Positions 252 to 9,275 of a stretch of DNA of 9,275 bases are shown in pieces. Below the pieces are notes generated by a model. That model was not told the DNA's origin, did not search any database, and was given only the letters and a program-made list of their open reading frames with translations. Numbering within the stretch: the stretch's first letter is position 1; the number at the start of each line of letters is the position of its first letter. The stretch lies in IMG/VR virus record IMGVR_UViG_2671181100_000005; one strand, written 5' to 3'. A program made the translations under genes and the position numbers. This DNA is from a virus (taxonomy: Duplodnaviria; Heunggongvirae; Uroviricota; Caudoviricetes).

Positions 252-794
252 TTACTTGTCTTTATCCGGCTGAAACTTATCAGGCACATTTCCGGTAGTT
301 TCCATCAGATAATCGGACAGCATTCGCGGGATGTTTTCATCAAGTTTTGTGCATGCGTTACAGGCTCTGACAACTTCTTTTTTCAGGCCATCCAGCATGG
401 CGGGGGTCATCTGTGGGAAGCTCCTTTGCATAGTAAGCGGCAGGCTGCCCATGATTGAAGAAATCTGACTCGCCAGTTTTGAAAGCGCATATATACAAAA
501 TTCCGTACTAATCACATCGCCGCGTTCGCGCTCGTTTTTAAGCTCCTGCGCCTCCGCCTGCGCTGTCAGCAATCTGATCCTGACTCGCAAAAGCTCATCA
601 TTATCAATCTCGCCTTTGTCGTCTGTAATCTGGTTAATTGCATTGCTAACCCGATTGTCTATTACGCTGGCAACATCATAAAACGCCTCGCGGCCTTTAC
701 GTTCAACGGGAGTCACTCCCCACTTGTCGAACGCTGTCGCACTTACACGGCAGCTTTGCGCCATGTTTTTTTTGTTCATCAGGTGCGATTTCAT
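252..794 (-). CDS. Terminase small subunit, lambda Nu1-like
   Basis: ORF-track protein matches my recollection of lambda Nu1 across the length, e.g. LLTAQAEAQELKNERERGDVISTEFCIYALSKLASQISSIMGSLPLTMQRSFP versus Nu1 LTRAQADAQELKNARDSAEVVETAFCTFVLSRIAGEIASILDGLPLSVQRRFP, and C-terminal LDENIPRMLSDYLMETTG versus LDELIPGLLSEYIEQSG. Start chosen at ATG 794..792 (GGGGA 6 nt upstream); ATG at 779 is an alternative. Lies directly downstream of the cos site, as in lambda. Confidence 0.85.
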   Translation of the reverse strand: MKSHLMNKKNMAQSCRVSATAFDKWGVTPVERKGREAFYDVASVIDNRVSNAINQITDDKGEIDNDELLRVRIRLLTAQAEAQELKNERERGDVISTEFCIYALSKLASQISSIMGSLPLTMQRSFPQMTPAMLDGLKKEVVRACNACTKLDENIPRMLSDYLMETTGNVPDKFQPDKDK

Positions 795-799
795 CAATA

Positions 800-990
800 T
801 CCCCACTTAAGTAATGTTTCAGGTTGGTGTATTGGCTTTATCTTTTCCTTTTTATTCATAGAGATAGAGCGAACAACAAAACCACCACCAGCACCCGAAA
901 AAGGCTCATAAATAGCGAAAACCCGCGAGGTCGCCGCCCCGTAGCCTACCGGATCGCCGGAAAGGACCCGCCAGCCAGAACGGGCCCTAA
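800..990 (-). other. Lambda-type cos site: cosN 12-nt cohesive end at 928..939 (complement), cosQ-like at about 945..985, divergent cosB-like at about 800..927
   Basis: Reverse complement of 907..940 reads GGGCGGCGACCTCGCGGGTTTTCGCTATTTATGA, identical to the first 34 nt of lambda as I remember them, then diverges. Reverse complement of 941..973 reads GGCGGGTCCTTTCCGGCGATCCGGTAGGCTACG, close to the lambda right end (GACGGGTCCTTTCCGGTGATCCGACAGGTTACG). Confidence 0.75.
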
Positions 991-995
991 TTTCA

Positions 996-1379
996 TCAAC
1001 CAATCAACTTATAGCGACCATCCCGTGCATTGCGACGTACACGCTCAATCTTGAGGCATAGCGCCGCATCTGGCTTTTTTGGGACAGGTACGCGGCAATA
1101 TTCAGAAGCTCGAGGAATATTGTTTATCCAGTCGATCACTTCACTTAAATACCAGGCCTTACGCCCTTCCGTAACCTGTACGCGTTCGGGGAACTCTCCG
1201 CGAGCCTCAAGGTTTAGCAATGTGCGACGGCTAAGGGTAGTAAGTTCCATCACCTGATTCATATCAACAAGGCGTTCACTTAAACGCATTTTGTCAGCAA
1301 TAGCCTTTAATTCCTCTACTGCTGGATCCGGATACATCATTTCGGCAATTGGCTTAAGGTCATTGTAATGATTCTGCAT
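996..1379 (-). CDS. AlpA-family HTH DNA-binding protein, second copy, with N- and C-terminal extensions
   Basis: Core MELTTLSRRTLLNLEARGEFPERVQVTEGRKAWYLSEVIDWINN resembles Phage_AlpA-type HTH proteins. ATG at 1379 is preceded by AAGGGGGA. Starts 11 nt after the D-like gene stop and ends next to cosQ. Confidence 0.7.
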   Translation of the reverse strand: MQNHYNDLKPIAEMMYPDPAVEELKAIADKMRLSERLVDMNQVMELTTLSRRTLLNLEARGEFPERVQVTEGRKAWYLSEVIDWINNIPRASEYCRVPVPKKPDAALCLKIERVRRNARDGRYKLIG

Positions 1380-1390
1380 TGTATCCCCCT

Positions 1391-1732
1391 TTACACACGA
1401 GCCAGCGGCTGAACAGAAATACCTGAGCCAACAAACGCGGCAACCTTTGCCGACAGTTCTTTTACAGACTCAGGCCAGTTCAGAGCATCAACATTTAAAA
1501 CACCTGTCTTATAAACCTGTGCCTGTGTTTTTTTCGCTGTGTCGATTTGTACAGCGGAAACATAAACCGCTTTGCCTGCGCTCGTTCCATCCCATACCAC
1601 TAGCGCACCAGTTGCATCTTCCTGCATCAGTGGCGTAAACGCAGGTATTACCCCTTTATTGGCTGAAAATATCCCCAGCGTAGTAACCAGTGCTTCAGTG
1701 CCAGACATGAGTTCAGTGTAATGAGTAGCCAT
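1391..1732 (-). CDS. Head decoration protein, lambda gpD-like
   Basis: PAFTPLMQEDATGALVVWDGTSAGKAVYVSAV and YKTGVLNVDALNWPESVKELSAKVAAFVGSGISV parallel lambda gpD [32 protein letters not shown] and [35 protein letters not shown] (from memory). 113 aa versus 110 aa for gpD. RBS GGGGGAG precedes the ATG. Confidence 0.85.
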   Translation of the reverse strand: MATHYTELMSGTEALVTTLGIFSANKGVIPAFTPLMQEDATGALVVWDGTSAGKAVYVSAVQIDTAKKTQAQVYKTGVLNVDALNWPESVKELSAKVAAFVGSGISVQPLARV

Positions 1733-1741
1733 TGCTCCCCC

Positions 1742-2788
1742 TTAGCCAATGCGAACGGTAACAAAACGATTGATGCGGGCCGGTATTGGCTGTGGTGCTG
1801 AATGTGTCTGCACATATTCAATAGCCGGATCACCAGGCACAATATAGTTTTTCGGTGCAAGTTCGGCTTTAGTCAGCCCCATCCGGATTAGCTCCGGATC
1901 CTGAATACCGCCATAAGCGACAATCCCCTGAAGAGCCGTATTGCCAAGCACCATCAAATCAGGATCAAGGAAATATTTTTCAGTTCCGTCCTCGTCGGTA
2001 TAACGCCCGCTGTAAACAACAATCGCAACATCGCCCATATACCCTTTAAAACTCACCGAATCACCAAGGTCTTTAAGGGCCGTTTCCAGTTCGGAATTAG
2101 AACCACGACGAGTATCCAGAGCCTCTTTTATCGCCCTGAATGAACGGTATTTCTTCCATACATTACCGCCCATAATGATAATATTAGTGACGCCCTCACT
2201 AAATTCTGCGTAGCTCTCAATATCATCATTTGGATCAAAAGCTTCTTTATCCTTACCTGACCACTCAGCACCGCCAGACTGAGTGATGATATTTTGTGGT
2301 TTAATATTCCAGTCCAGCTCATAACGTTCAATACCATCGCCCTCAATGATATTTTTCCCCGTTGTGATTGCCTGAACGGCAAGCCATTCAATACGTGCAC
2401 GAATAGCTTTAGCCTGATTTACAATCGCCTGTTTAACTTTAATATTACGCGCTCCAAAAGCATTGTATTGCTCAGGTGATACACCAGCAGGGCGCACAGC
2501 TAACTTATTTGGATCAATGCTGCTTTTCGGTTTCATATAGCCAGGGCGAATTGTTTTTGATTCGTATCCCTCATCTCGTGAAACTTTACTGCCCACCATA
2601 GGAGAGCAAAACGCCGCGATCGGGATATTTGGATCGTCGATCGTATCAAGAATAATGTCTCTCGATTCAAACATTACCGAGCGAGTGAAAAACAAACTGG
2701 TAAACAACGCATTTAATTTTTTTTGCACATCTTCAGCATTAGCCACCTGCACAAGCTGTGTAGGCGAATATAAGTCAACCATACTCAT
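1742..2788 (-). CDS. Major capsid protein, lambda gpE family
   Basis: Long collinear similarity to lambda gpE as I recall it: NIITQSGGAEWSGKDKEAFDPNDDIESYA, DTRRGSNSELETALKDLGDSVSFKGYMGDVAIVVYSG, MVLGNT, PGDPAIEY. Start set at the MSM motif (ATG 2788, or 2782 with AAAGAGG 6 nt upstream), like lambda E's MSM start. The longer track ORF (start 2869) is probably an upstream extension. Confidence 0.9.
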   Translation of the reverse strand: MSMVDLYSPTQLVQVANAEDVQKKLNALFTSLFFTRSVMFESRDIILDTIDDPNIPIAAFCSPMVGSKVSRDEGYESKTIRPGYMKPKSSIDPNKLAVRPAGVSPEQYNAFGARNIKVKQAIVNQAKAIRARIEWLAVQAITTGKNIIEGDGIERYELDWNIKPQNIITQSGGAEWSGKDKEAFDPNDDIESYAEFSEGVTNIIIMGGNVWKKYRSFRAIKEALDTRRGSNSELETALKDLGDSVSFKGYMGDVAIVVYSGRYTDEDGTEKYFLDPDLMVLGNTALQGIVAYGGIQDPELIRMGLTKAELAPKNYIVPGDPAIEYVQTHSAPQPIPARINRFVTVRIG

Positions 2789-2953: not shown

Positions 2954-2993
2954 ATGCCGGAAAATCTATTTTTTTCCGGCATCTTTTTGTTTG
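2954..2993 (+). terminator. Perfect 11-bp inverted repeat stem-loop followed by a T-tract (candidate intrinsic terminator, plus-strand orientation)
   Basis: ATGCCGGAAAA (2954..2964), 7-nt loop, TTTTCCGGCAT (2972..2982), then CTTTTTGTTTG. Lies just downstream of the ssb stop on the opposite strand; on the minus strand the U-tract is absent, so the orientation and role are uncertain. Confidence 0.4.
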
Positions 2994-2999
2994 CAGAAT

Positions 3000-3422
3000 T
3001 TAAAACGGTATATTATCGCCGTACGGATCATCATTCCCCGACTGTTGTTTTGCCCTGTTCAGTGCGTCAGTGGCCTGCCCCTGCTGGCCTTTTTTGCCGC
3101 CCGGTCGCGCTGTTCGCGCACTGATCACGCTGTCTGCGATAACCTGCCAGCCCTGCCGCGTTTCGCCGTTCTGGCCTGTCCACTGGCTTACCTGCATGTT
3201 ACCCGCCACGCTCACCAGTTCGCCTTTGTGGTGTTTTGCCAGTGCGTCGGCCTGTCTGCCAAACGCCAGGACGGATAACCACATCATCGCCGTTCCGTCA
3301 TCTGCCTGGCTGCACGGAAGGGGGACCGCCATACTAGCCATCGCCATTTGTGTACCCTTGCTGGTGGTCTTTAACTGCGGATCAGCCACCAGCCGTCCGT
3401 AAGCCGCTATCTGTGCTGTCAT
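3000..3422 (-). CDS. ssb: Single-stranded DNA-binding protein (SSB)
   Basis: OB-fold-like N-terminal region (YGRLVADPQL..., WLSVLAFGRQADALAKHHKGELVSVAGNMQVSQWTGQNGETRQGWQVIADSV) parallels E. coli SSB. Gly/Gln-rich linker and acidic C-terminal tail ...DDPYGDNIPF match the SSB signature ...DDDIPF. Start ATG overlaps the upstream ORF stop (ATGA). Confidence 0.85.
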   Translation of the reverse strand: MTAQIAAYGRLVADPQLKTTSKGTQMAMASMAVPLPCSQADDGTAMMWLSVLAFGRQADALAKHHKGELVSVAGNMQVSQWTGQNGETRQGWQVIADSVISARTARPGGKKGQQGQATDALNRAKQQSGNDDPYGDNIPF

Positions 3423-3664
3423 GCTGTCTGCTCTCCGGTTTTAACGTTGATGGTTGTCACCTGTTCCGCTTCGGCAATCTCCCGTTCTGTCAGCGTGGCA
3501 AAGTTTGCAGCTGCCGTTGTCATGAATGCGCTAATCAGTTCGGGATGTGCTTTCGCATATCCTTCCCCGGCGTTGCGGTCGATGATTTTTATCGACACCC
3601 TTAACCAGTGTTCCGTCAAATCAAGGGCGTGCGATTGTGATTTTTTTATGTGCTTCGCTGTCAT
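3419..3664 (-). CDS. Hypothetical protein (81 aa), translationally coupled to ssb
   Basis: ORF stop overlaps the ssb start in an ATGA arrangement. RBS is weak (GAGA) and there is no recognisable motif. The competing plus-strand ORF in the same region looks non-protein-like. Confidence 0.4.
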   Translation of the reverse strand: MTAKHIKKSQSHALDLTEHWLRVSIKIIDRNAGEGYAKAHPELISAFMTTAAANFATLTEREIAEAEQVTTINVKTGEQTA

Positions 3665-3708
3665 AGGCTTTATCTCACAGCAGTAAATTAAAATTTTTGC
3701 GTTTTAAC

Positions 3709-3905
3709 CCTTCACCTGTTCACCTTTTGATATTTTATCTTTTAATTCATAATGTTAAGGGGTGAACAGTTTCACAAAAACTATTCACCAACTGTTCACC
3801 ACTGTTCACNNNNNNNNNNNNNNNNNNNNNNNNNNNNNNNNNNNNNNNNNNNNNNNNNNNNNNNNNNNNNNNNNNNNNNNNNNNNNGTGAACAGTGGTGA
3901 ACAGT
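3709..3905. repeat. Iteron array of octamer TGTTCACC / GGTGAACA (P4 ori/crr-type), candidate replication origin
   Basis: Exact octamers at 3717..3724 and 3793..3800 (TGTTCACC) and 3761..3768 and 3896..3903 (GGTGAACA). Gap-truncated copies at 3803..3809 and 3887..3893, plus degenerate copies (3709..3716, 3783..3789). Sits immediately downstream of the primase-helicase gene. Confidence 0.6.
3810..3886. other. Run of 77 N (unresolved or masked sequence) inside the iteron region
   Basis: Directly visible in the sequence. Flanked by a perfect 19-nt inverted repeat (3791..3809 ACTGTTCACCACTGTTCAC; 3887..3905 GTGAACAGTGGTGAACAGT). Confidence 0.95.
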
Positions 3906-3917
3906 TATTCCATAAGT

Positions 3918-6750: not shown

Positions 6751-7056
6751 ATGGCTACAGGTTCAAAAAACGCAAAATCACAATCACTGACAGCTCGGAT
6801 CCCGCATGATGTTATTGAAGGCATGGAATCCGTAAAACTGGACGGTGAAAGCAACGCCGGATTCATAGTAACCGCCATGCGCGGTGAAATCGCCCGCCGC
6901 CAGGCAGAAGGAAGCGGAGAAAACCTCCTGGTTTCTTCGCTCGATGCCCTAGCGCAGGTGGAAAAAATCGGAGTCAAAGCCGCCGAGGAGATCGGGCAAC
7001 TCGTCACCGTCGCGCGTGAAGAACTCCAGCGACGCAAGGTCAAAGAGCAGGAATAG
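6751..7056 (+). CDS. Small DNA-binding-like protein, possible ribbon-helix-helix regulator (101 aa)
   Basis: ATG at 6751 with GAGAGGA 7 nt upstream. N-terminal SLTARIPHDVIEGMESV resembles RHH (CopG/Arc-like) beta-strand-helix starts; the C-terminus is predicted helical and charged. Divergent from the minus-strand operon. Confidence 0.5.
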   Translation: MATGSKNAKSQSLTARIPHDVIEGMESVKLDGESNAGFIVTAMRGEIARRQAEGSGENLLVSSLDALAQVEKIGVKAAEEIGQLVTVAREELQRRKVKEQE

Positions 7057-7407: not shown

Positions 7408-7617
7408 TTACGCTGCCTTACCTGAATTAATGCGATCCCGGCTTTTAACCCATTCCATAACCTCGGACAGCAGCCAACCTACAGAACGCCCACCAAGATT
7501 ACGGCGAGACGGAAAGCTCCCTTTTTTCTCCAGTTCGTAGCGTGTAGTGCGACACACTCCAGTTAACTTACGACATTCATCCTCACGGATTACGCGATCT
7601 TCATTTATTTCACGCAT
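7408..7617 (-). CDS. alpA: AlpA-family phage regulatory protein (transcriptional activator / excision regulator)
   Basis: RVIREDECRKLTGVCRTTRYELEKKGSFPSRRNLGGRSVGWLLSEVMEWV is a typical AlpA HTH. Start set at the internal Met (MREINED..., 70 aa, the usual AlpA size). The track ORF extends to 7704 through an AT-rich stretch that looks more like promoter than coding sequence. Confidence 0.8.
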   Translation of the reverse strand: MREINEDRVIREDECRKLTGVCRTTRYELEKKGSFPSRRNLGGRSVGWLLSEVMEWVKSRDRINSGKAA

Positions 7618-7997
7618 ACAAAAACCTACATAAAAATTACGTATATAAACTTTTCTCTTAGCTGTAGATATATGAGATCGGATATTACTTAGATTCTTTT
7701 TCACCTATTAAATTAAAAACACAACCATGCTAAAGGCTTTGTTCGCTAAGGTTCGTAGAAGCTCGTTAGTGTTTAAAATCGTGTCACGAGTTTTTAAGCG
7801 ACGCAACAAAAAATGTCGTCATTTGGCATGACACCTGAATTACCTCATTAAAAACAAATAGATAAACCATCAGATGTTGGAACAATCAAGAAACAGAGAA
7901 TAAGAACTCAGAAGAAGACATTTCAATTTTTTTCGATAGTTGACACATATAAAGAGAAGATATTTGCAGATATTCCCCGATATTCTAAGATCTATTC

Positions 7998-8036: not shown

Positions 8037-9275
8037 TCAAGAATTTTGGGGGTAAATTCGCGGGGTCATAACAACGATTTTTTCATCATTGTTCTGGAGA
8101 AGCTCGAGACGGTCTACCCATAGATTAAGAGCATCACGTTTTGCATCAAGGTAGCGGGAGTGGTTATAGACTCGTTGCATCCCTGGCATCTGGTGGGCTG
8201 TAAGCTGCTCGACAATATGCGGATCCACGCCTAAATCGTTCAGCATGGTTGTAAATGTGTGCCGGATATCGTGTAACGTCCAGGGGGCTTGATTAATTCG
8301 TCTGTGCGCTGTTCTTCCGTACTCTGCTACCGAAGATTGTCCTTTCAGTTCACCAAGCAATAAGCCTGTGTGTCTGTTCTGCTCCACCAGTTGCGTGACG
8401 AACGGCAAAATGCTTTCCGGTATTGGCCTGAATATGGCGACCTTCGTTTTGCTGTGCTCCTTCGGTACTGTCCAGAGCATTTCTTTAAAATCCCACTCCT
8501 GCACCTCAGAGCGCCTTAGCTCAGTGGTACGGCATCCAAAAACAATCAGGAGGCGAATTAGGGCGCTGTAGTATGGCGGGAATATTTTGTCATCCAGGGC
8601 GCGGAGTAATTCCCCAAGCTCCTTATTTGTTAGTACGCGCTCGCTCACTTCTGCTTTTTTTCCCACATCACCGACAACCATATCATCAAGAACGTTGCTG
8701 ATTGCGTATCGTCGTTTTCGGCAGTACTTAAGCGCCTGTTTGCATACCTGTAGCAAAAATCCGGCAGATACTGGGCTTCGCTTTGCCATCTGGTCAAAAC
8801 ATGCCAACCAGTGCCGTAGCTCGCATTTTTCCAACGGCAAAGCGCCAATCTGGCTGATTATGTGTTTATTGATCCGGCTTTTCAGTGATTCGTAGTCAGT
8901 GCGCTTTTCCTTTGCATACGATTCAAGCCAGTAAGTGAGCGCTTCCTTAACTGTCACGGGGGCTAACGCATCCTGTACAGCACGATTAAGCTCATAGCGC
9001 GGATTTTTCCCCTCAGCCAGCCAGGCGCGACACTGTGCTGCTTTTTCCCTGGCTGCTTTCAGACTCAGATCGGGATAATTGCCCAGTCTCAGACGTTCCG
9101 GTGATACCTGCCTACCAGTTCCGGCCCTGTAAGTGAAATACCAGGTTAACAGGCCGCTGGTGGAATGTCTTACGCTAAGATTGCCACCGTCATTAAAAAA
9201 GGCGTTTTTTGTGGTTGGTGATCCGCTTAATTTTCGTAAAAGAGTGTCGCTAAGTCTATGAATTGCGCTGCTCAT
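8037..9275 (-). CDS. int: Tyrosine recombinase / integrase, P4-type
   Basis: N-terminal arm-type region (NDGGNLSVRHSTSGLLTWYFTYRAGTGRQ... YPDLSLKAAREKA) is typical of P4-family integrases. C-terminal catalytic motifs HDIRHTFTTMLNDLG and RVYNHSRY are present. The ATG sits exactly at the window edge (9275). Confidence 0.92.
   Translation of the reverse strand: MSSAIHRLSDTLLRKLSGSPTTKNAFFNDGGNLSVRHSTSGLLTWYFTYRAGTGRQVSPERLRLGNYPDLSLKAAREKAAQCRAWLAEGKNPRYELNRAVQDALAPVTVKEALTYWLESYAKEKRTDYESLKSRINKHIISQIGALPLEKCELRHWLACFDQMAKRSPVSAGFLLQVCKQALKYCRKRRYAISNVLDDMVVGDVGKKAEVSERVLTNKELGELLRALDDKIFPPYYSALIRLLIVFGCRTTELRRSEVQEWDFKEMLWTVPKEHSKTKVAIFRPIPESILPFVTQLVEQNRHTGLLLGELKGQSSVAEYGRTAHRRINQAPWTLHDIRHTFTTMLNDLGVDPHIVEQLTAHQMPGMQRVYNHSRYLDAKRDALNLWVDRLELLQNNDEKIVVMTPRIYPQNS

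What the first reader, a model, noticed from the sequence alone, without database searches (positions are those of the whole stretch)
1391..2788. Satellite-encoded complete major capsid (E-like) and decoration (D-like) proteins without adjacent portal, protease or scaffold genes
Both are full length (348 and 113 aa, versus about 341 and 110 for lambda E and D), tightly linked (9-nt spacer) and in reversed order relative to lambda (E before D). A capsid shell protein alone cannot assemble a head. If no portal or protease lies further left, this protein may co-assemble with helper components, possibly to build a different-sized capsid suited to a small genome.
Basis: partly seen in the sequence, partly recalled or inferred. 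Interest (0 to 1): 0.7.

Follow-up and report, generated by a model that had tools for sequence, protein, structure and literature searches.

The report
Satellite island carrying its own lambda-type capsid genes
A 10.5-kb E. coli phage satellite (a PICI) carries intact, selection-maintained copies of lambda-like shell (E) and cement (D) proteins but no other head genes; this arrangement is real but already described for this family, and what the two genes do is still unknown.

Summary
On the minus strand lie a full-length lambda-E-type capsid gene (1742-2782/2788) and a lambda-D-type decoration gene (1391-1732), 9 nt apart, E before D. The whole island is 10,485 bp between cspD and clpS and has no portal, protease or scaffold gene. 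The feature is already known. EcCICFT073 carries the homologous pair c1499/c1500 (structure 3BQW), and the reference island EcCIIHE3034 sits at this same site. Capsid genes were reported in 21 of 29 reference Gram-negative PICIs. New here: these E/D pairs form a lineage found only in satellites (at least 52% identical to each other, at most 43% to any phage E). The order is always E then D, and dN/dS is 0.06-0.10. The same cassette (at least 98%) occurs in satellites inserted into gene E or B of prophages whose head genes are 97-99.6% phage lambda, so the helper is lambda-like. Sister islands add a C protease or a Nu3-like scaffold piece. I think the pair most likely builds a satellite-encoded shell on the helper's portal and scaffold. 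A smaller capsid is not favoured: four island copies fill a lambda-size head. The published negative knock-outs used islands already disrupted in that scaffold-like gene (c1501) or in c1499.

The parts
1742..2788 (-). Satellite major capsid protein, lambda gpE family (E_sat). It is 348 aa from the ATG at 2788, more likely 346 aa from the ATG at 2782.
   Evidence: Pfam PF03864 4.8e-41. PHROG 29 'major head protein' 1.9e-89. 42% identical to lambda gpE and 55% to EcCICFT073 c1499. PDB 3BQW E=1e-121. AF2 model TM 0.76 to 3BQW and 0.74 to lambda gpE. dN/dS 0.07-0.095. Start-codon context.
1733..1741 (-). 9-nt E-D spacer GGGGGAGCA carrying the D ribosome-binding site. D is in the same reading frame as E.
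   Evidence: Sequence read. The same spacing is seen in 80 of 80 IMG/VR relatives. A 463-aa in-frame E-D fusion exists in one database contig (P0005).
1391..1732 (-). Satellite head decoration protein, lambda gpD / phage 21 SHP family (D_sat), 113 aa.
   Evidence: Pfam PF02924 2.3e-15. PHROG 49. 40% identical to lambda gpD and 54% to c1500. AF2 model pLDDT 82, TM 0.8-0.9 to SHP and gpD. The N-terminal arm and C-terminal tail are conserved among satellites and differ from lambda D. dN/dS 0.06-0.09.
996..1379 (-). Second AlpA-family HTH protein (127 aa), the third gene of the cassette.
   Evidence: Pfam Phage_AlpA 1.4e-8. PHROG 2790 1.8e-48. It follows D in 79 of 80 IMG/VR relatives. It is unrelated to the gene at this position in EcCICFT073.
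895..970 (-). Lambda-type cos site: cosQ GGGTCCT (969-963) and the cosN 12-mer GGGCGGCGACCT (939-928). The downstream cosB region is unlike lambda's.
   Evidence: 68 of 76 bases identical to the lambda cos junction.
252..806 (-). Small terminase subunit, Nu1 family. RefSeq starts it at 794.
   Evidence: Pfam Phage_Nu1 1.2e-21. PHROG 57 1.9e-50. 35% identical to lambda Nu1, 37% in the DNA-binding part and 44% in the part that binds gpA.
3000..3664 (-). Replication-zone genes just upstream of the capsid gene: SSB (3000-3422) and an 81-aa ORF (3419-3664).
   Evidence: Pfam SSB 1.7e-15. PHROG 1231. RefSeq annotation.
3690..3917 (.). Replication origin with many CTGTTCACC / GGTGAACAG iterons, partly masked by the window's run of N.
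   Evidence: Compared with the unmasked copy in L001. PICI origins lie just 3' of pri (PMC6092414).
3918..5750 (-). Primase/helicase (D5_N, DUF5906, Pox_D5).
7408..7704 (-). AlpA regulator next to the integrase. RefSeq starts it at 7617.
   Evidence: Pfam Phage_AlpA 4.8e-16. Annotation.
8037..9275 (-). Tyrosine integrase, 99.8% identical to that of the reference island EcCIIHE3034.
   Evidence: The att repeat ATGATAGTTAT lies 184 bp beyond the window's right end and 992 bp beyond its left end.

Best explanation
The two genes are the capsid cassette of a 10.5-kb Gram-negative PICI-type satellite of lambda-like phages. The island has the EcCIIHE3034 backbone at the cspD-clpS site. Shown: both proteins are intact members of the gpE and gpD families. 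They belong to a lineage found only in satellites. They always travel as an E-then-D pair and are under strong purifying selection. The helper of this exact cassette has lambda's own head genes. Inferred: after induction, E_sat assembles on the helper's portal (gpB) with the helper's protease/scaffold (gpC/Nu3) into shells made largely or wholly of E_sat. D_sat, whose E-binding arm has diverged together with E_sat, cements them after expansion. The island's Nu1-like TerS binds its own cosB and recruits helper gpA to cut the lambda-type cosN, so island concatemers are packaged. These are probably four copies in a lambda-size T=7 head. On this reading the satellite supplies the two proteins needed in about 400 copies per head and takes the low-copy parts from the helper. 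The module is accessory rather than essential when the helper's own E and D are available.
For: Family membership and fold.
No other head gene in the whole island.
Satellite-restricted lineage:
- No E in 50,697 deposited phage genomes is more than 42% identical.
- Database hits are bimodal, at least 52% versus at most 43% identical.
- Every context sampled for the 52%-and-above group is an int-alpA-pri satellite with E then D and no portal or TerL of its own. These are L003, L005-L009, L011-L021 and 80 IMG/VR loci.
dN/dS is 0.07-0.095 for E and 0.06-0.09 for D at unsaturated dS. That is as low as or lower than ssb and terS of the same islands.
The D_sat N-arm and C-tail are conserved within satellites and differ from lambda D. 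A cement protein that binds only expanded shells would be pointless unless E_sat lattices form.
Sister islands add a lambda-C-like S49 protease/scaffold right after D (L013, L015, L016). Others add a 137-143-aa protein matching the C-terminal ~80 aa of such proteins (EcCICFT073 c1501 and L015). This marks the cassette as a head-assembly module.
Helper identity:
- The same cassette (E 99%, D 96%, AlpA2 99%, TerS 91%) sits inside gene B of a prophage whose A, W, B, C, Nu3, D, E and FII proteins are 97-99.6% lambda, with FI at 89%.
- In 32 IMG/VR loci it sits inside a helper E gene that is 90-100% identical to lambda gpE.
- cosQ and cosN are identical to lambda's, and the island has its own TerS and cosB.
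Island sizes are 10.36-11.60 kb (n=32), so four copies make 41-46 kb.
Against: No experiment shows E_sat or D_sat in particles. In EcCICFT073, deleting c1499 or c1500 changed neither transfer nor lambda interference. An island with c1499 replaced by cat transferred at 1e5-1e6 per ml (PMC6092414). E_sat is therefore dispensable when the helper makes its own E.
E_sat is only 41-45% identical to the helper E beside it. Compatibility with the helper's Nu3 scaffold and portal is assumed, not shown.
The window's cassette has no scaffold-like gene.
Relatives of one subclade sit inside P2-like prophages, whose capsid and scaffold families are unrelated. This is hard to reconcile with dependence on a lambda-type scaffold if those prophages are the helpers.
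Confidence: 0.45

Rival explanations
1. Spare copy or dosage supply. E_sat and D_sat mix with, or substitute for, the helper's gpE and gpD without giving particles any new property. They matter only when helper E is absent or limiting. Examples are relatives that physically split the helper's E gene, or defective prophages used as helpers.
For: Most IMG/VR occurrences of this exact cassette are in satellites inserted in the helper's E gene: 32 certain and up to 57 of 80. The authors of PMC10111431 proposed a backup role. The EcCICFT073 deletions had no phenotype.
Against: The same cassette is carried by satellites inserted in the portal gene, and these carry no spare portal gene. It is also carried by chromosomal islands such as this one. 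D is never interrupted yet is always carried. Only 42% identity to helper E makes mixed capsomers doubtful. A mere spare would be expected to stay close to the helper allele, yet no phage E is closer than 42%.
Confidence: 0.22
2. Capsid-size redirection. E_sat, alone or as pentamers as proposed for SaPIbov5 Ccm, forces small heads that fit the island and exclude the helper genome.
For: SaPIbov5 Ccm is a precedent: a satellite homologue of the helper capsid protein that changes capsid size and shape (PMC8569155 abstract). PmCI172 makes small capsids and encodes a capsid homologue. The published EcCICFT073 tests were made with c1501, a Nu3-like gene, or c1499 itself disrupted, so an intact module was never examined.
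Against: Packaged EcCICFT073 DNA was phage-sized. A T=4 head holds about 0.35 of the T=7 genome, as in P2/P4 and 80alpha/SaPI1 (established knowledge), which is roughly 17 kb for lambda. One island copy (10.4-11.6 kb) would underfill it and two would overfill it, whereas four copies give 85-96% of lambda's length (inference). No size-determining scaffold is encoded in this window.
Confidence: 0.15
3. Interference. E_sat and D_sat act mainly against the helper. They could poison helper capsomers, or they could take up portal and scaffold so that fewer helper heads form.
For: PICIs generally interfere with their helpers, and a divergent capsid homologue could be dominant-negative (general knowledge; PMC6092414).
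Against: Deleting c1499 or c1500 did not relieve lambda interference. RppA (c1503) accounts for it. A poison subunit needs neither a co-evolving cement protein nor the protease/scaffold genes found in sister islands.
Confidence: 0.1
4. Decaying remnants of helper late genes picked up by chance, with no function.
For: PICI late zones do capture prophage late genes (PMC10111431).
Against: dN/dS is 0.06-0.10. The pair is intact in 395 of 397 E. coli genomes that hold it. It is conserved across many enterobacterial genera. It forms a deep lineage separate from all phage E proteins.
Confidence: 0.02

Closest known systems
EcCICFT073 c1499 (capsid) / c1500 (head decoration), Gram-negative PICI (Fillol-Salom et al. 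2018, PMC6092414; crystal structure PDB 3BQW)
   Same: Same element type, with int-alpA-pri-ori followed by late genes. The order is E then D with a 9-11-nt spacer and no portal or protease. The helpers are lambda and phage 80 type, and the island has lambda-like cosN. E is 55% and D 54% identical to the window's proteins, closer than either is to lambda.
   Different: A different cassette subtype. EcCICFT073 has a 68-aa ORF before E and a Nu3-C-terminus-like gene (c1501) after D. It uses RppA instead of a TerS. The window has an AlpA-like gene after D and its own Nu1-type TerS. The integration site also differs.
EcCIIHE3034, reference PICI at cspD-clpS (PMC6092414, supplementary table)
   Same: Same site and the same att repeat ATGATAGTTAT. 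Same size, 10.5 kb. The integrase is 99.8% identical, alpA is identical, and TerS is 84% identical.
   Different: Its E-D-c1501-like cassette is the EcCICFT073 type (E 95% to c1499). The window carries the other cassette type (E 55%, D 54%, with AlpA-like in place of c1501-like), and its primase is only 48% identical. The islands are mosaics with a swapped cassette.
Helper-embedded PICIs such as Eco567.11capE (PMC10111431)
   Same: The E-D-AlpA-like(-TerS) cassette is 91-92% identical in DNA to E-embedded E. coli elements (L018, L020). It is at least 98% identical in protein to 80 IMG/VR loci, most of them embedded in a lambda-type E or B gene.
   Different: This island is not embedded. Its integrase is only 37-42% identical to theirs and targets a chromosomal site.
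SaPIbov5 Ccm (satellite homologue of the helper capsid protein)
   Same: A satellite-encoded homologue of the helper's major capsid protein in a cos-packaged island.
   Different: Ccm redirects capsid size and shape and has no partner decoration protein. Here no size change is documented, and the one tested relative gave phage-size DNA.
Capsid-forming PICIs (cf-PICIs)
   Same: Satellites that encode their own HK97-fold capsid protein and small terminase.
   Different: cf-PICIs also encode portal, protease, head-tail connectors and TerL and take only tails from the helper. This island lacks all of those. Sister islands with E-D-C protease look intermediate.
Phage lambda gpE / gpD (and phage 21 SHP)
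   Same: Same families, lengths and folds. 74 positions are conserved in both the satellite and phage E groups.
   Different: Identity is only 40-42% and the gene order is reversed. 15 positions are fixed differently between the groups, clustered at residues 136-153 and 327-336. D has a shorter, different N-arm and a longer C-tail.

Membership tests
Gram-negative PICI (Fillol-Salom 2018) | Integrase at one end, flanked by a specific att repeat | tested here: met
   The integrase is at 8037-9275. ATGATAGTTAT flanks a 10,485-bp element at the published cspD-clpS site.
Gram-negative PICI (Fillol-Salom 2018) | alpA next to int, then a primase/replicase with an iteron origin just 3' of it, genes mostly co-oriented | tested here: met
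   AlpA 4.8e-16. The primase has D5_N, DUF5906 and Pox_D5 domains. CTGTTCACC iterons lie downstream of it. All core genes are on the minus strand.
Gram-negative PICI (Fillol-Salom 2018) | Small size (about 10-15 kb), no lysis or tail genes, and a packaging device (cos and/or terS/rpp) | tested here: met
   The island is 10.5 kb. It has a lambda-type cosQ/cosN plus a Nu1-like TerS. No tail or lysis genes are present.
Gram-negative PICI (Fillol-Salom 2018) | Induction, replication and high-frequency transfer by a helper phage | not testable with these tools
   This needs experiments. The near relative EcCIIHE3034 transferred poorly with its resident prophages.
Lambda gpE major capsid family (Pfam PF03864, HK97 fold) | Full-length match to the family profile and the HK97-type fold | tested here: met
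   Pfam 4.8e-41 over positions 4-327 of 329. The model, of moderate confidence (pLDDT 66, pTM 0.73), has TM 0.76 to 3BQW and 0.74 to gpE.
Lambda gpE major capsid family (Pfam PF03864, HK97 fold) | Assembles into an icosahedral shell | not testable with these tools
   No assembly data exist for any satellite E. 3BQW is a structural-genomics entry for the isolated protein; I found no paper describing it.
Lambda gpD / SHP decoration family (Pfam PF02924) | Family profile match and gpD fold | tested here: met
   Pfam 2.3e-15. The model has pLDDT 82, TM 0.8-0.9 and rmsd 1.3 A to SHP and gpD.
Lambda gpD / SHP decoration family (Pfam PF02924) | Trimer binding at threefold sites of the expanded shell through the N-terminal arm | not testable with these tools
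   The N-arm is conserved among satellites but differs from lambda's. The binding partner is inferred.
Capsid-forming PICI (cf-PICI) | Own portal, protease, head-tail connectors and large terminase in addition to the capsid protein | tested here: not met
   None of these is present in the complete island.
Helper-embedded PICI (HE-PICI) | Integrated inside a late gene of the helper prophage | tested here: not met
   The island is flanked by the chromosomal genes clpS and cspD. Only the cassette is shared with HE-PICIs.
Ccm-type capsid size redirection (SaPIbov5) | Satellite homologue of the helper's capsid protein | tested here: met
   42% identical to lambda gpE. Helpers of embedded relatives carry gpE that is 90-100% lambda.
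Ccm-type capsid size redirection (SaPIbov5) | Production of small, satellite-sized capsids that depends on that homologue | not testable with these tools
   Literature on the 55%-identical relative reports phage-size DNA and no phenotype, but in islands disrupted in c1501 or c1499. Size arithmetic favours four copies per T=7 head.

The most novel reading that the evidence does not exclude
E_sat and D_sat, with a Nu3-like mini-scaffold or C protease in sister islands, form a satellite-owned shell module. The satellite would build its entire icosahedral shell itself on a stolen lambda portal and scaffold. That would be an evolutionary and functional halfway stage between classical PICIs, which take the whole capsid from the helper, and cf-PICIs, which take only tails. 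It might give particles with different size, stability or immunity to capsid-sensing defences. The published 'no phenotype' result would then be an artefact of markers placed in c1501 or c1499.
Probability: 0.3. Interest if true: 0.6.

Novelty: already known. Interest (0 to 1): 0.3.

Why it matters
Capsid genes are the commonest late genes in Gram-negative PICIs, yet since 2018 nobody has found what they do. This window adds no new kind of element, but the comparison sharpens the question in four ways.
- The E/D pair is an old, selection-maintained lineage found only in satellites, not a recent pick-up from a helper.
- Its natural helper carries essentially phage lambda's head genes, so the standard lambda toolbox (E and D amber mutants, in vitro assembly) can test it directly.
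- Sister islands extend the module with scaffold or protease genes.
- The one published negative test was done on islands already disrupted in the module.
If the satellite does make its own shell, it would fill the gap between satellites that steal whole capsids and those that steal only tails.

Tried and rejected
- The genome-contig scan with the E alignment returned only 4 loci. Contexts therefore came from the look-up of encoding contigs and IMG/VR.
- The IMG/VR scan kept only the 80 best loci, all at least 98% identical. It says nothing about more distant members.
- My first att guess was a 15-bp repeat at L001 7091/17333. The published att ATGATAGTTAT at 7009/17483 replaced it. The 15-mers lie just inside both ends and may be integrase arm sites.
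- Promoter and terminator scans around E and D were no better than shuffled sequence: 4 promoter-like sites against 5.5 expected. I draw no conclusion about a separate late promoter.
- Rfam found no RNA family in the island.
- c1501 shows no BLASTP similarity to lambda gpC itself. Its scaffold-like assignment rests on matches to other lambda-like S49 proteins and to PHROG 53 and is moderate evidence only.
- The 521-534-aa protein of the Salmonella satellites in P2-like prophages matched nothing informative.
- The idea that the pair is a spare for an interrupted helper gene was rejected as the general explanation. Portal-embedded and chromosomal islands carry the same pair.
- I could not map clade-specific residues onto inner or outer capsid surfaces, because no coordinates were available offline.
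- The AF2 model of E is only of moderate confidence (pLDDT 66), so I used it only to assign the fold.
Full report
**Observation.** The window is one phage satellite with nearly all genes on the minus strand.
- The E-like ORF (1742-2788, 348 aa from the first ATG) matches Pfam Phage_cap_E at 4.8e-41 over almost the whole profile.
- The D-like ORF (1391-1732, 113 aa) matches the lambda head-decoration family at 2.3e-15.
- Against phage lambda itself, E is 42% identical from end to end and D is 40% identical over 78 residues.
- The junction reads TAA GGGGGAGCA ATG, a 9-nt spacer that holds the D ribosome-binding site.
- E comes before D, the reverse of lambda.
- The likelier E start is the second ATG (2782, 346 aa), because the AAGAGG site abuts the first ATG. 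RefSeq and the protein databases use that start.

**What the window is.** An identical copy lies in E. coli CFS3313 and several other complete genomes. In the window, from 9275 down to 1, the order is:
- integrase, alpA, an Icd-like gene and DUF4222;
- a D5-type primase and an iteron origin (partly hidden by the window's run of N);
- an 81-aa ORF and SSB;
- E, D and a second AlpA-like gene;
- a cos site and a Nu1-type small terminase.

One 94-aa ORF follows, 12 bp beyond the window's left end. The cos site shares 68 of 76 bases with lambda's. It includes cosQ GGGTCCT and an identical 12-base cosN, then diverges where lambda has cosB. The att repeat published for the reference island EcCIIHE3034, ATGATAGTTAT, flanks the element. 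That gives a length of 10,485 bp between cspD and clpS.

**Relatives.**
- The window's E and D are closer to the pair in the model satellite EcCICFT073 (c1499 and c1500, 55% and 54% identical) than to lambda's. That pair is also arranged E then D, 11 nt apart.
- No E in 50,697 deposited phage genomes is more than 42% identical.
- In the large protein collection the hits split in two. One group is at least 52% identical and the other at most 43%. Clustering puts the window and c1499 in the first group and lambda in the second.
- I looked at the genomic context of every branch of the first group that I could reach. These came from Escherichia, Salmonella, Edwardsiella, Lelliottia, Cedecea, Kluyvera, Kosakonia and Superficieibacter, plus unnamed metagenome or read-assembly contigs. 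All are int-alpA-primase satellites of about 10-11.6 kb with E then D. None has its own portal or large terminase.
- About 7% of complete E. coli genomes (397 of 5,426) carry this subtype at 80% or more DNA identity.
- The published idea that PICI late genes are captured from helpers (PMC10111431) may hold in general. This pair, however, is an old lineage of its own.

**Mosaic structure.** The island shares its integrase (99.8%), att site, SSB (89%) and TerS (84%) with EcCIIHE3034. That island carries the EcCICFT073-type cassette: a 68-aa ORF, E, D and a 137-aa gene. The window instead carries E, D and an AlpA-like gene, 91-92% identical in DNA to the cassette of helper-embedded PICIs of E. 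coli. There are therefore at least two interchangeable cassette types.

**Helper.** In IMG/VR, 80 loci encode an E at least 98% identical to the window's.
- All 80 have E then D at the same spacing, and 79 have the AlpA-like gene.
- 32 are inserted at about codon 80 of a helper E gene that is 90-100% identical to lambda gpE (95% or more in nearly all).
- Another set is inserted at about codon 275 of the portal gene.
- In one such prophage the proteins A, W, B, C, Nu3, D, E and FII are 97-99.6% identical to lambda's, with FI at 89%.

Together with the lambda-type cosN and a TerS whose C-terminal part resembles Nu1, this identifies the helper as a lambda-type phage. In those cells the satellite's E coexists with a helper E that is only 41-42% identical.

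**Function is maintained.** Pairwise dN/dS at unsaturated divergence is 0.07-0.095 for E and 0.06-0.09 for D. That is as low as or lower than for ssb and terS in the same islands. Other observations:
- The E model is of moderate confidence. It matches the crystal structure of c1499 (PDB 3BQW) and lambda gpE.
- The D model matches phage 21 SHP and gpD at 1.3 A.
- 74 positions are conserved in both the satellite and phage E groups. 15 are fixed differently, clustered at residues 136-153 and 327-336.
- D_sat has an N-terminal arm and a C-terminal tail that are conserved among satellites and unlike lambda's. From established knowledge of lambda, the gpD arm clamps onto gpE of the expanded shell. 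A conserved, co-diverged cement protein therefore implies that E_sat lattices form and expand.
- Sister islands extend the module. Three carry a lambda-C-like S49 protease/scaffold right after D.
- EcCICFT073 and another island carry a short protein matching the C-terminal ~80 residues of such proteins. That is the region where lambda's scaffold Nu3 lies.

**What is already known.** Fillol-Salom et al. 2018 (PMC6092414) described c1499 and c1500 as a capsid and a head-decoration protein.
- They deleted each and saw no change in transfer or in lambda interference.
- They found only phage-sized packaged DNA.
- RppA (c1503) explains both the interference and the packaging redirection.
- PMC10111431 states that capsid genes occur in 21 of 29 reference Gram-negative PICIs and are the commonest late gene. 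It describes the embedded relatives.

The arrangement is therefore not new.

One caveat emerged. The deletions were made in an island marked c1501::tetA, and the other marked island had c1499 replaced by cat. The paper's supplement gives c1501 as 137 aa. That identifies it as the gene I find to be scaffold-like. The three-gene module was thus never tested intact. The data still show firmly that E_sat is dispensable for transfer when the helper makes its own E.

**Most likely mechanism.**
- Shown: the island has its own cos, TerS, E and D and nothing else for heads, and the helper is lambda-like.
- Inferred: E_sat assembles on the helper's portal with the helper's protease/scaffold. D_sat cements the expanded shell. 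Helper gpA, recruited by the island's TerS, packages island concatemers.

E and D are the two head proteins needed in about 400 copies each (established knowledge), so the satellite supplies the bulk components itself.

Size arithmetic does not favour a smaller head. Embedded relatives measure 10.36-11.60 kb (median 10.94 kb, n=32), and four copies give 41-46 kb, or 85-96% of lambda's genome. A T=4 head holds about 0.35 of the T=7 genome, judging from P2/P4 and 80alpha/SaPI1. One copy would underfill it and two would overfill it (inference).

I put 0.45 on the satellite-built-shell reading, 0.22 on a mere spare or dosage role, 0.15 on size redirection, 0.10 on interference and 0.02 on decay.

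One unexplained point remains. One subclade sits inside P2-like prophages, whose capsid and scaffold families are unrelated.

**Verdict.** The feature is already described for this family, so novelty is low and interest modest. The open question of what PICI capsid genes do is now directly testable with lambda amber mutants.

Noticed in passing
L003 2084-2497 (EcCICFT073 c1501); also L015 12652-13083: The gene after the decoration gene in EcCICFT073 (137 aa, c1501) matches the C-terminal ~80 aa of S49 protease/scaffold proteins of lambda-like prophages (blastp 7.7e-9; PHROG 53 1e-8). NCBI names it a head-tail (pre)connector protein. It was the insertion site of the tetA marker in the published knock-out experiments.
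   Followed up: partly
window 3690-3917 (the run of N covers about 3810-3885); L001 11700-11950: The run of N masks part of the replication origin. In the unmasked copy there are more than ten CTGTTCACC/GGTGAACAG iterons just downstream of the primase gene, and the stretch is 34 bp longer than in the window.
   Followed up: partly
window 895-970, minus strand: The cos site has cosQ and a 12-base cosN identical to phage lambda's but an unrelated cosB. It lies between the AlpA-like gene and the island's own Nu1-like TerS.
   Followed up: yes
L001 7091-7105 and 17333-17347 (outside the window on the left; beyond the integrase start on the right): A 15-bp direct repeat, ATTAACTACACCATT, lies just inside both att sites. 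The copies may be integrase arm-type binding sites.
   Followed up: no
protein P0005 (463 aa, one contig): An in-frame E-D fusion protein. The stop codon plus the 9-nt spacer keep D in frame with E, so a single stop-codon change fuses them. It could equally be a sequencing error.
   Followed up: no
protein P0146 (194 aa): A protein with both decoration (D) and Nu1 domains, 100% identical to the window's D over 73% of it. This points to a deletion that removed the AlpA-like gene and cos in some E. coli islands.
   Followed up: no
L011 and L012 (Salmonella): Satellites with an E-D pair (57% identical to the window's E) are inserted inside P2-like prophages, one in the tail-gene region and one near portal gene Q. 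Those prophages have capsid (gpN) and scaffold (gpO) families unrelated to lambda's. Each satellite also carries a 521-534-aa protein of unknown function.
   Followed up: partly
L013 11409-12752; L015 11418-12659; L016 2213-3433: Chromosomal satellites at the fis site carry E, D and then a lambda-C-like S49 protease (51-54% identical to gpC). This makes an E-D-C head module that still lacks a portal.
   Followed up: partly
L003 463-669; L009 9789-10001; L013 9774-10001; L014 9777-10001; L017 7885-8091: A conserved 68-79-aa ORF abuts the start of E in the EcCICFT073-type cassette (32-59% identical to the EcCICFT073 copy in the four loci compared). It is absent from the window's cassette type. 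No family match.
   Followed up: no
window 2954-2982: A perfect 11-bp-stem hairpin (ATGCCGGAAAA...TTTTCCGGCAT) lies between the ssb stop codon and the capsid gene. It has a T-run only on the plus strand, so it is not a canonical terminator for the minus-strand genes.
   Followed up: no
L001 4050-4077 (outside the island, between tRNA-Ser and clpA): A single Rfam CRISPR-DR4 repeat hit in the chromosome near the island.
   Followed up: no
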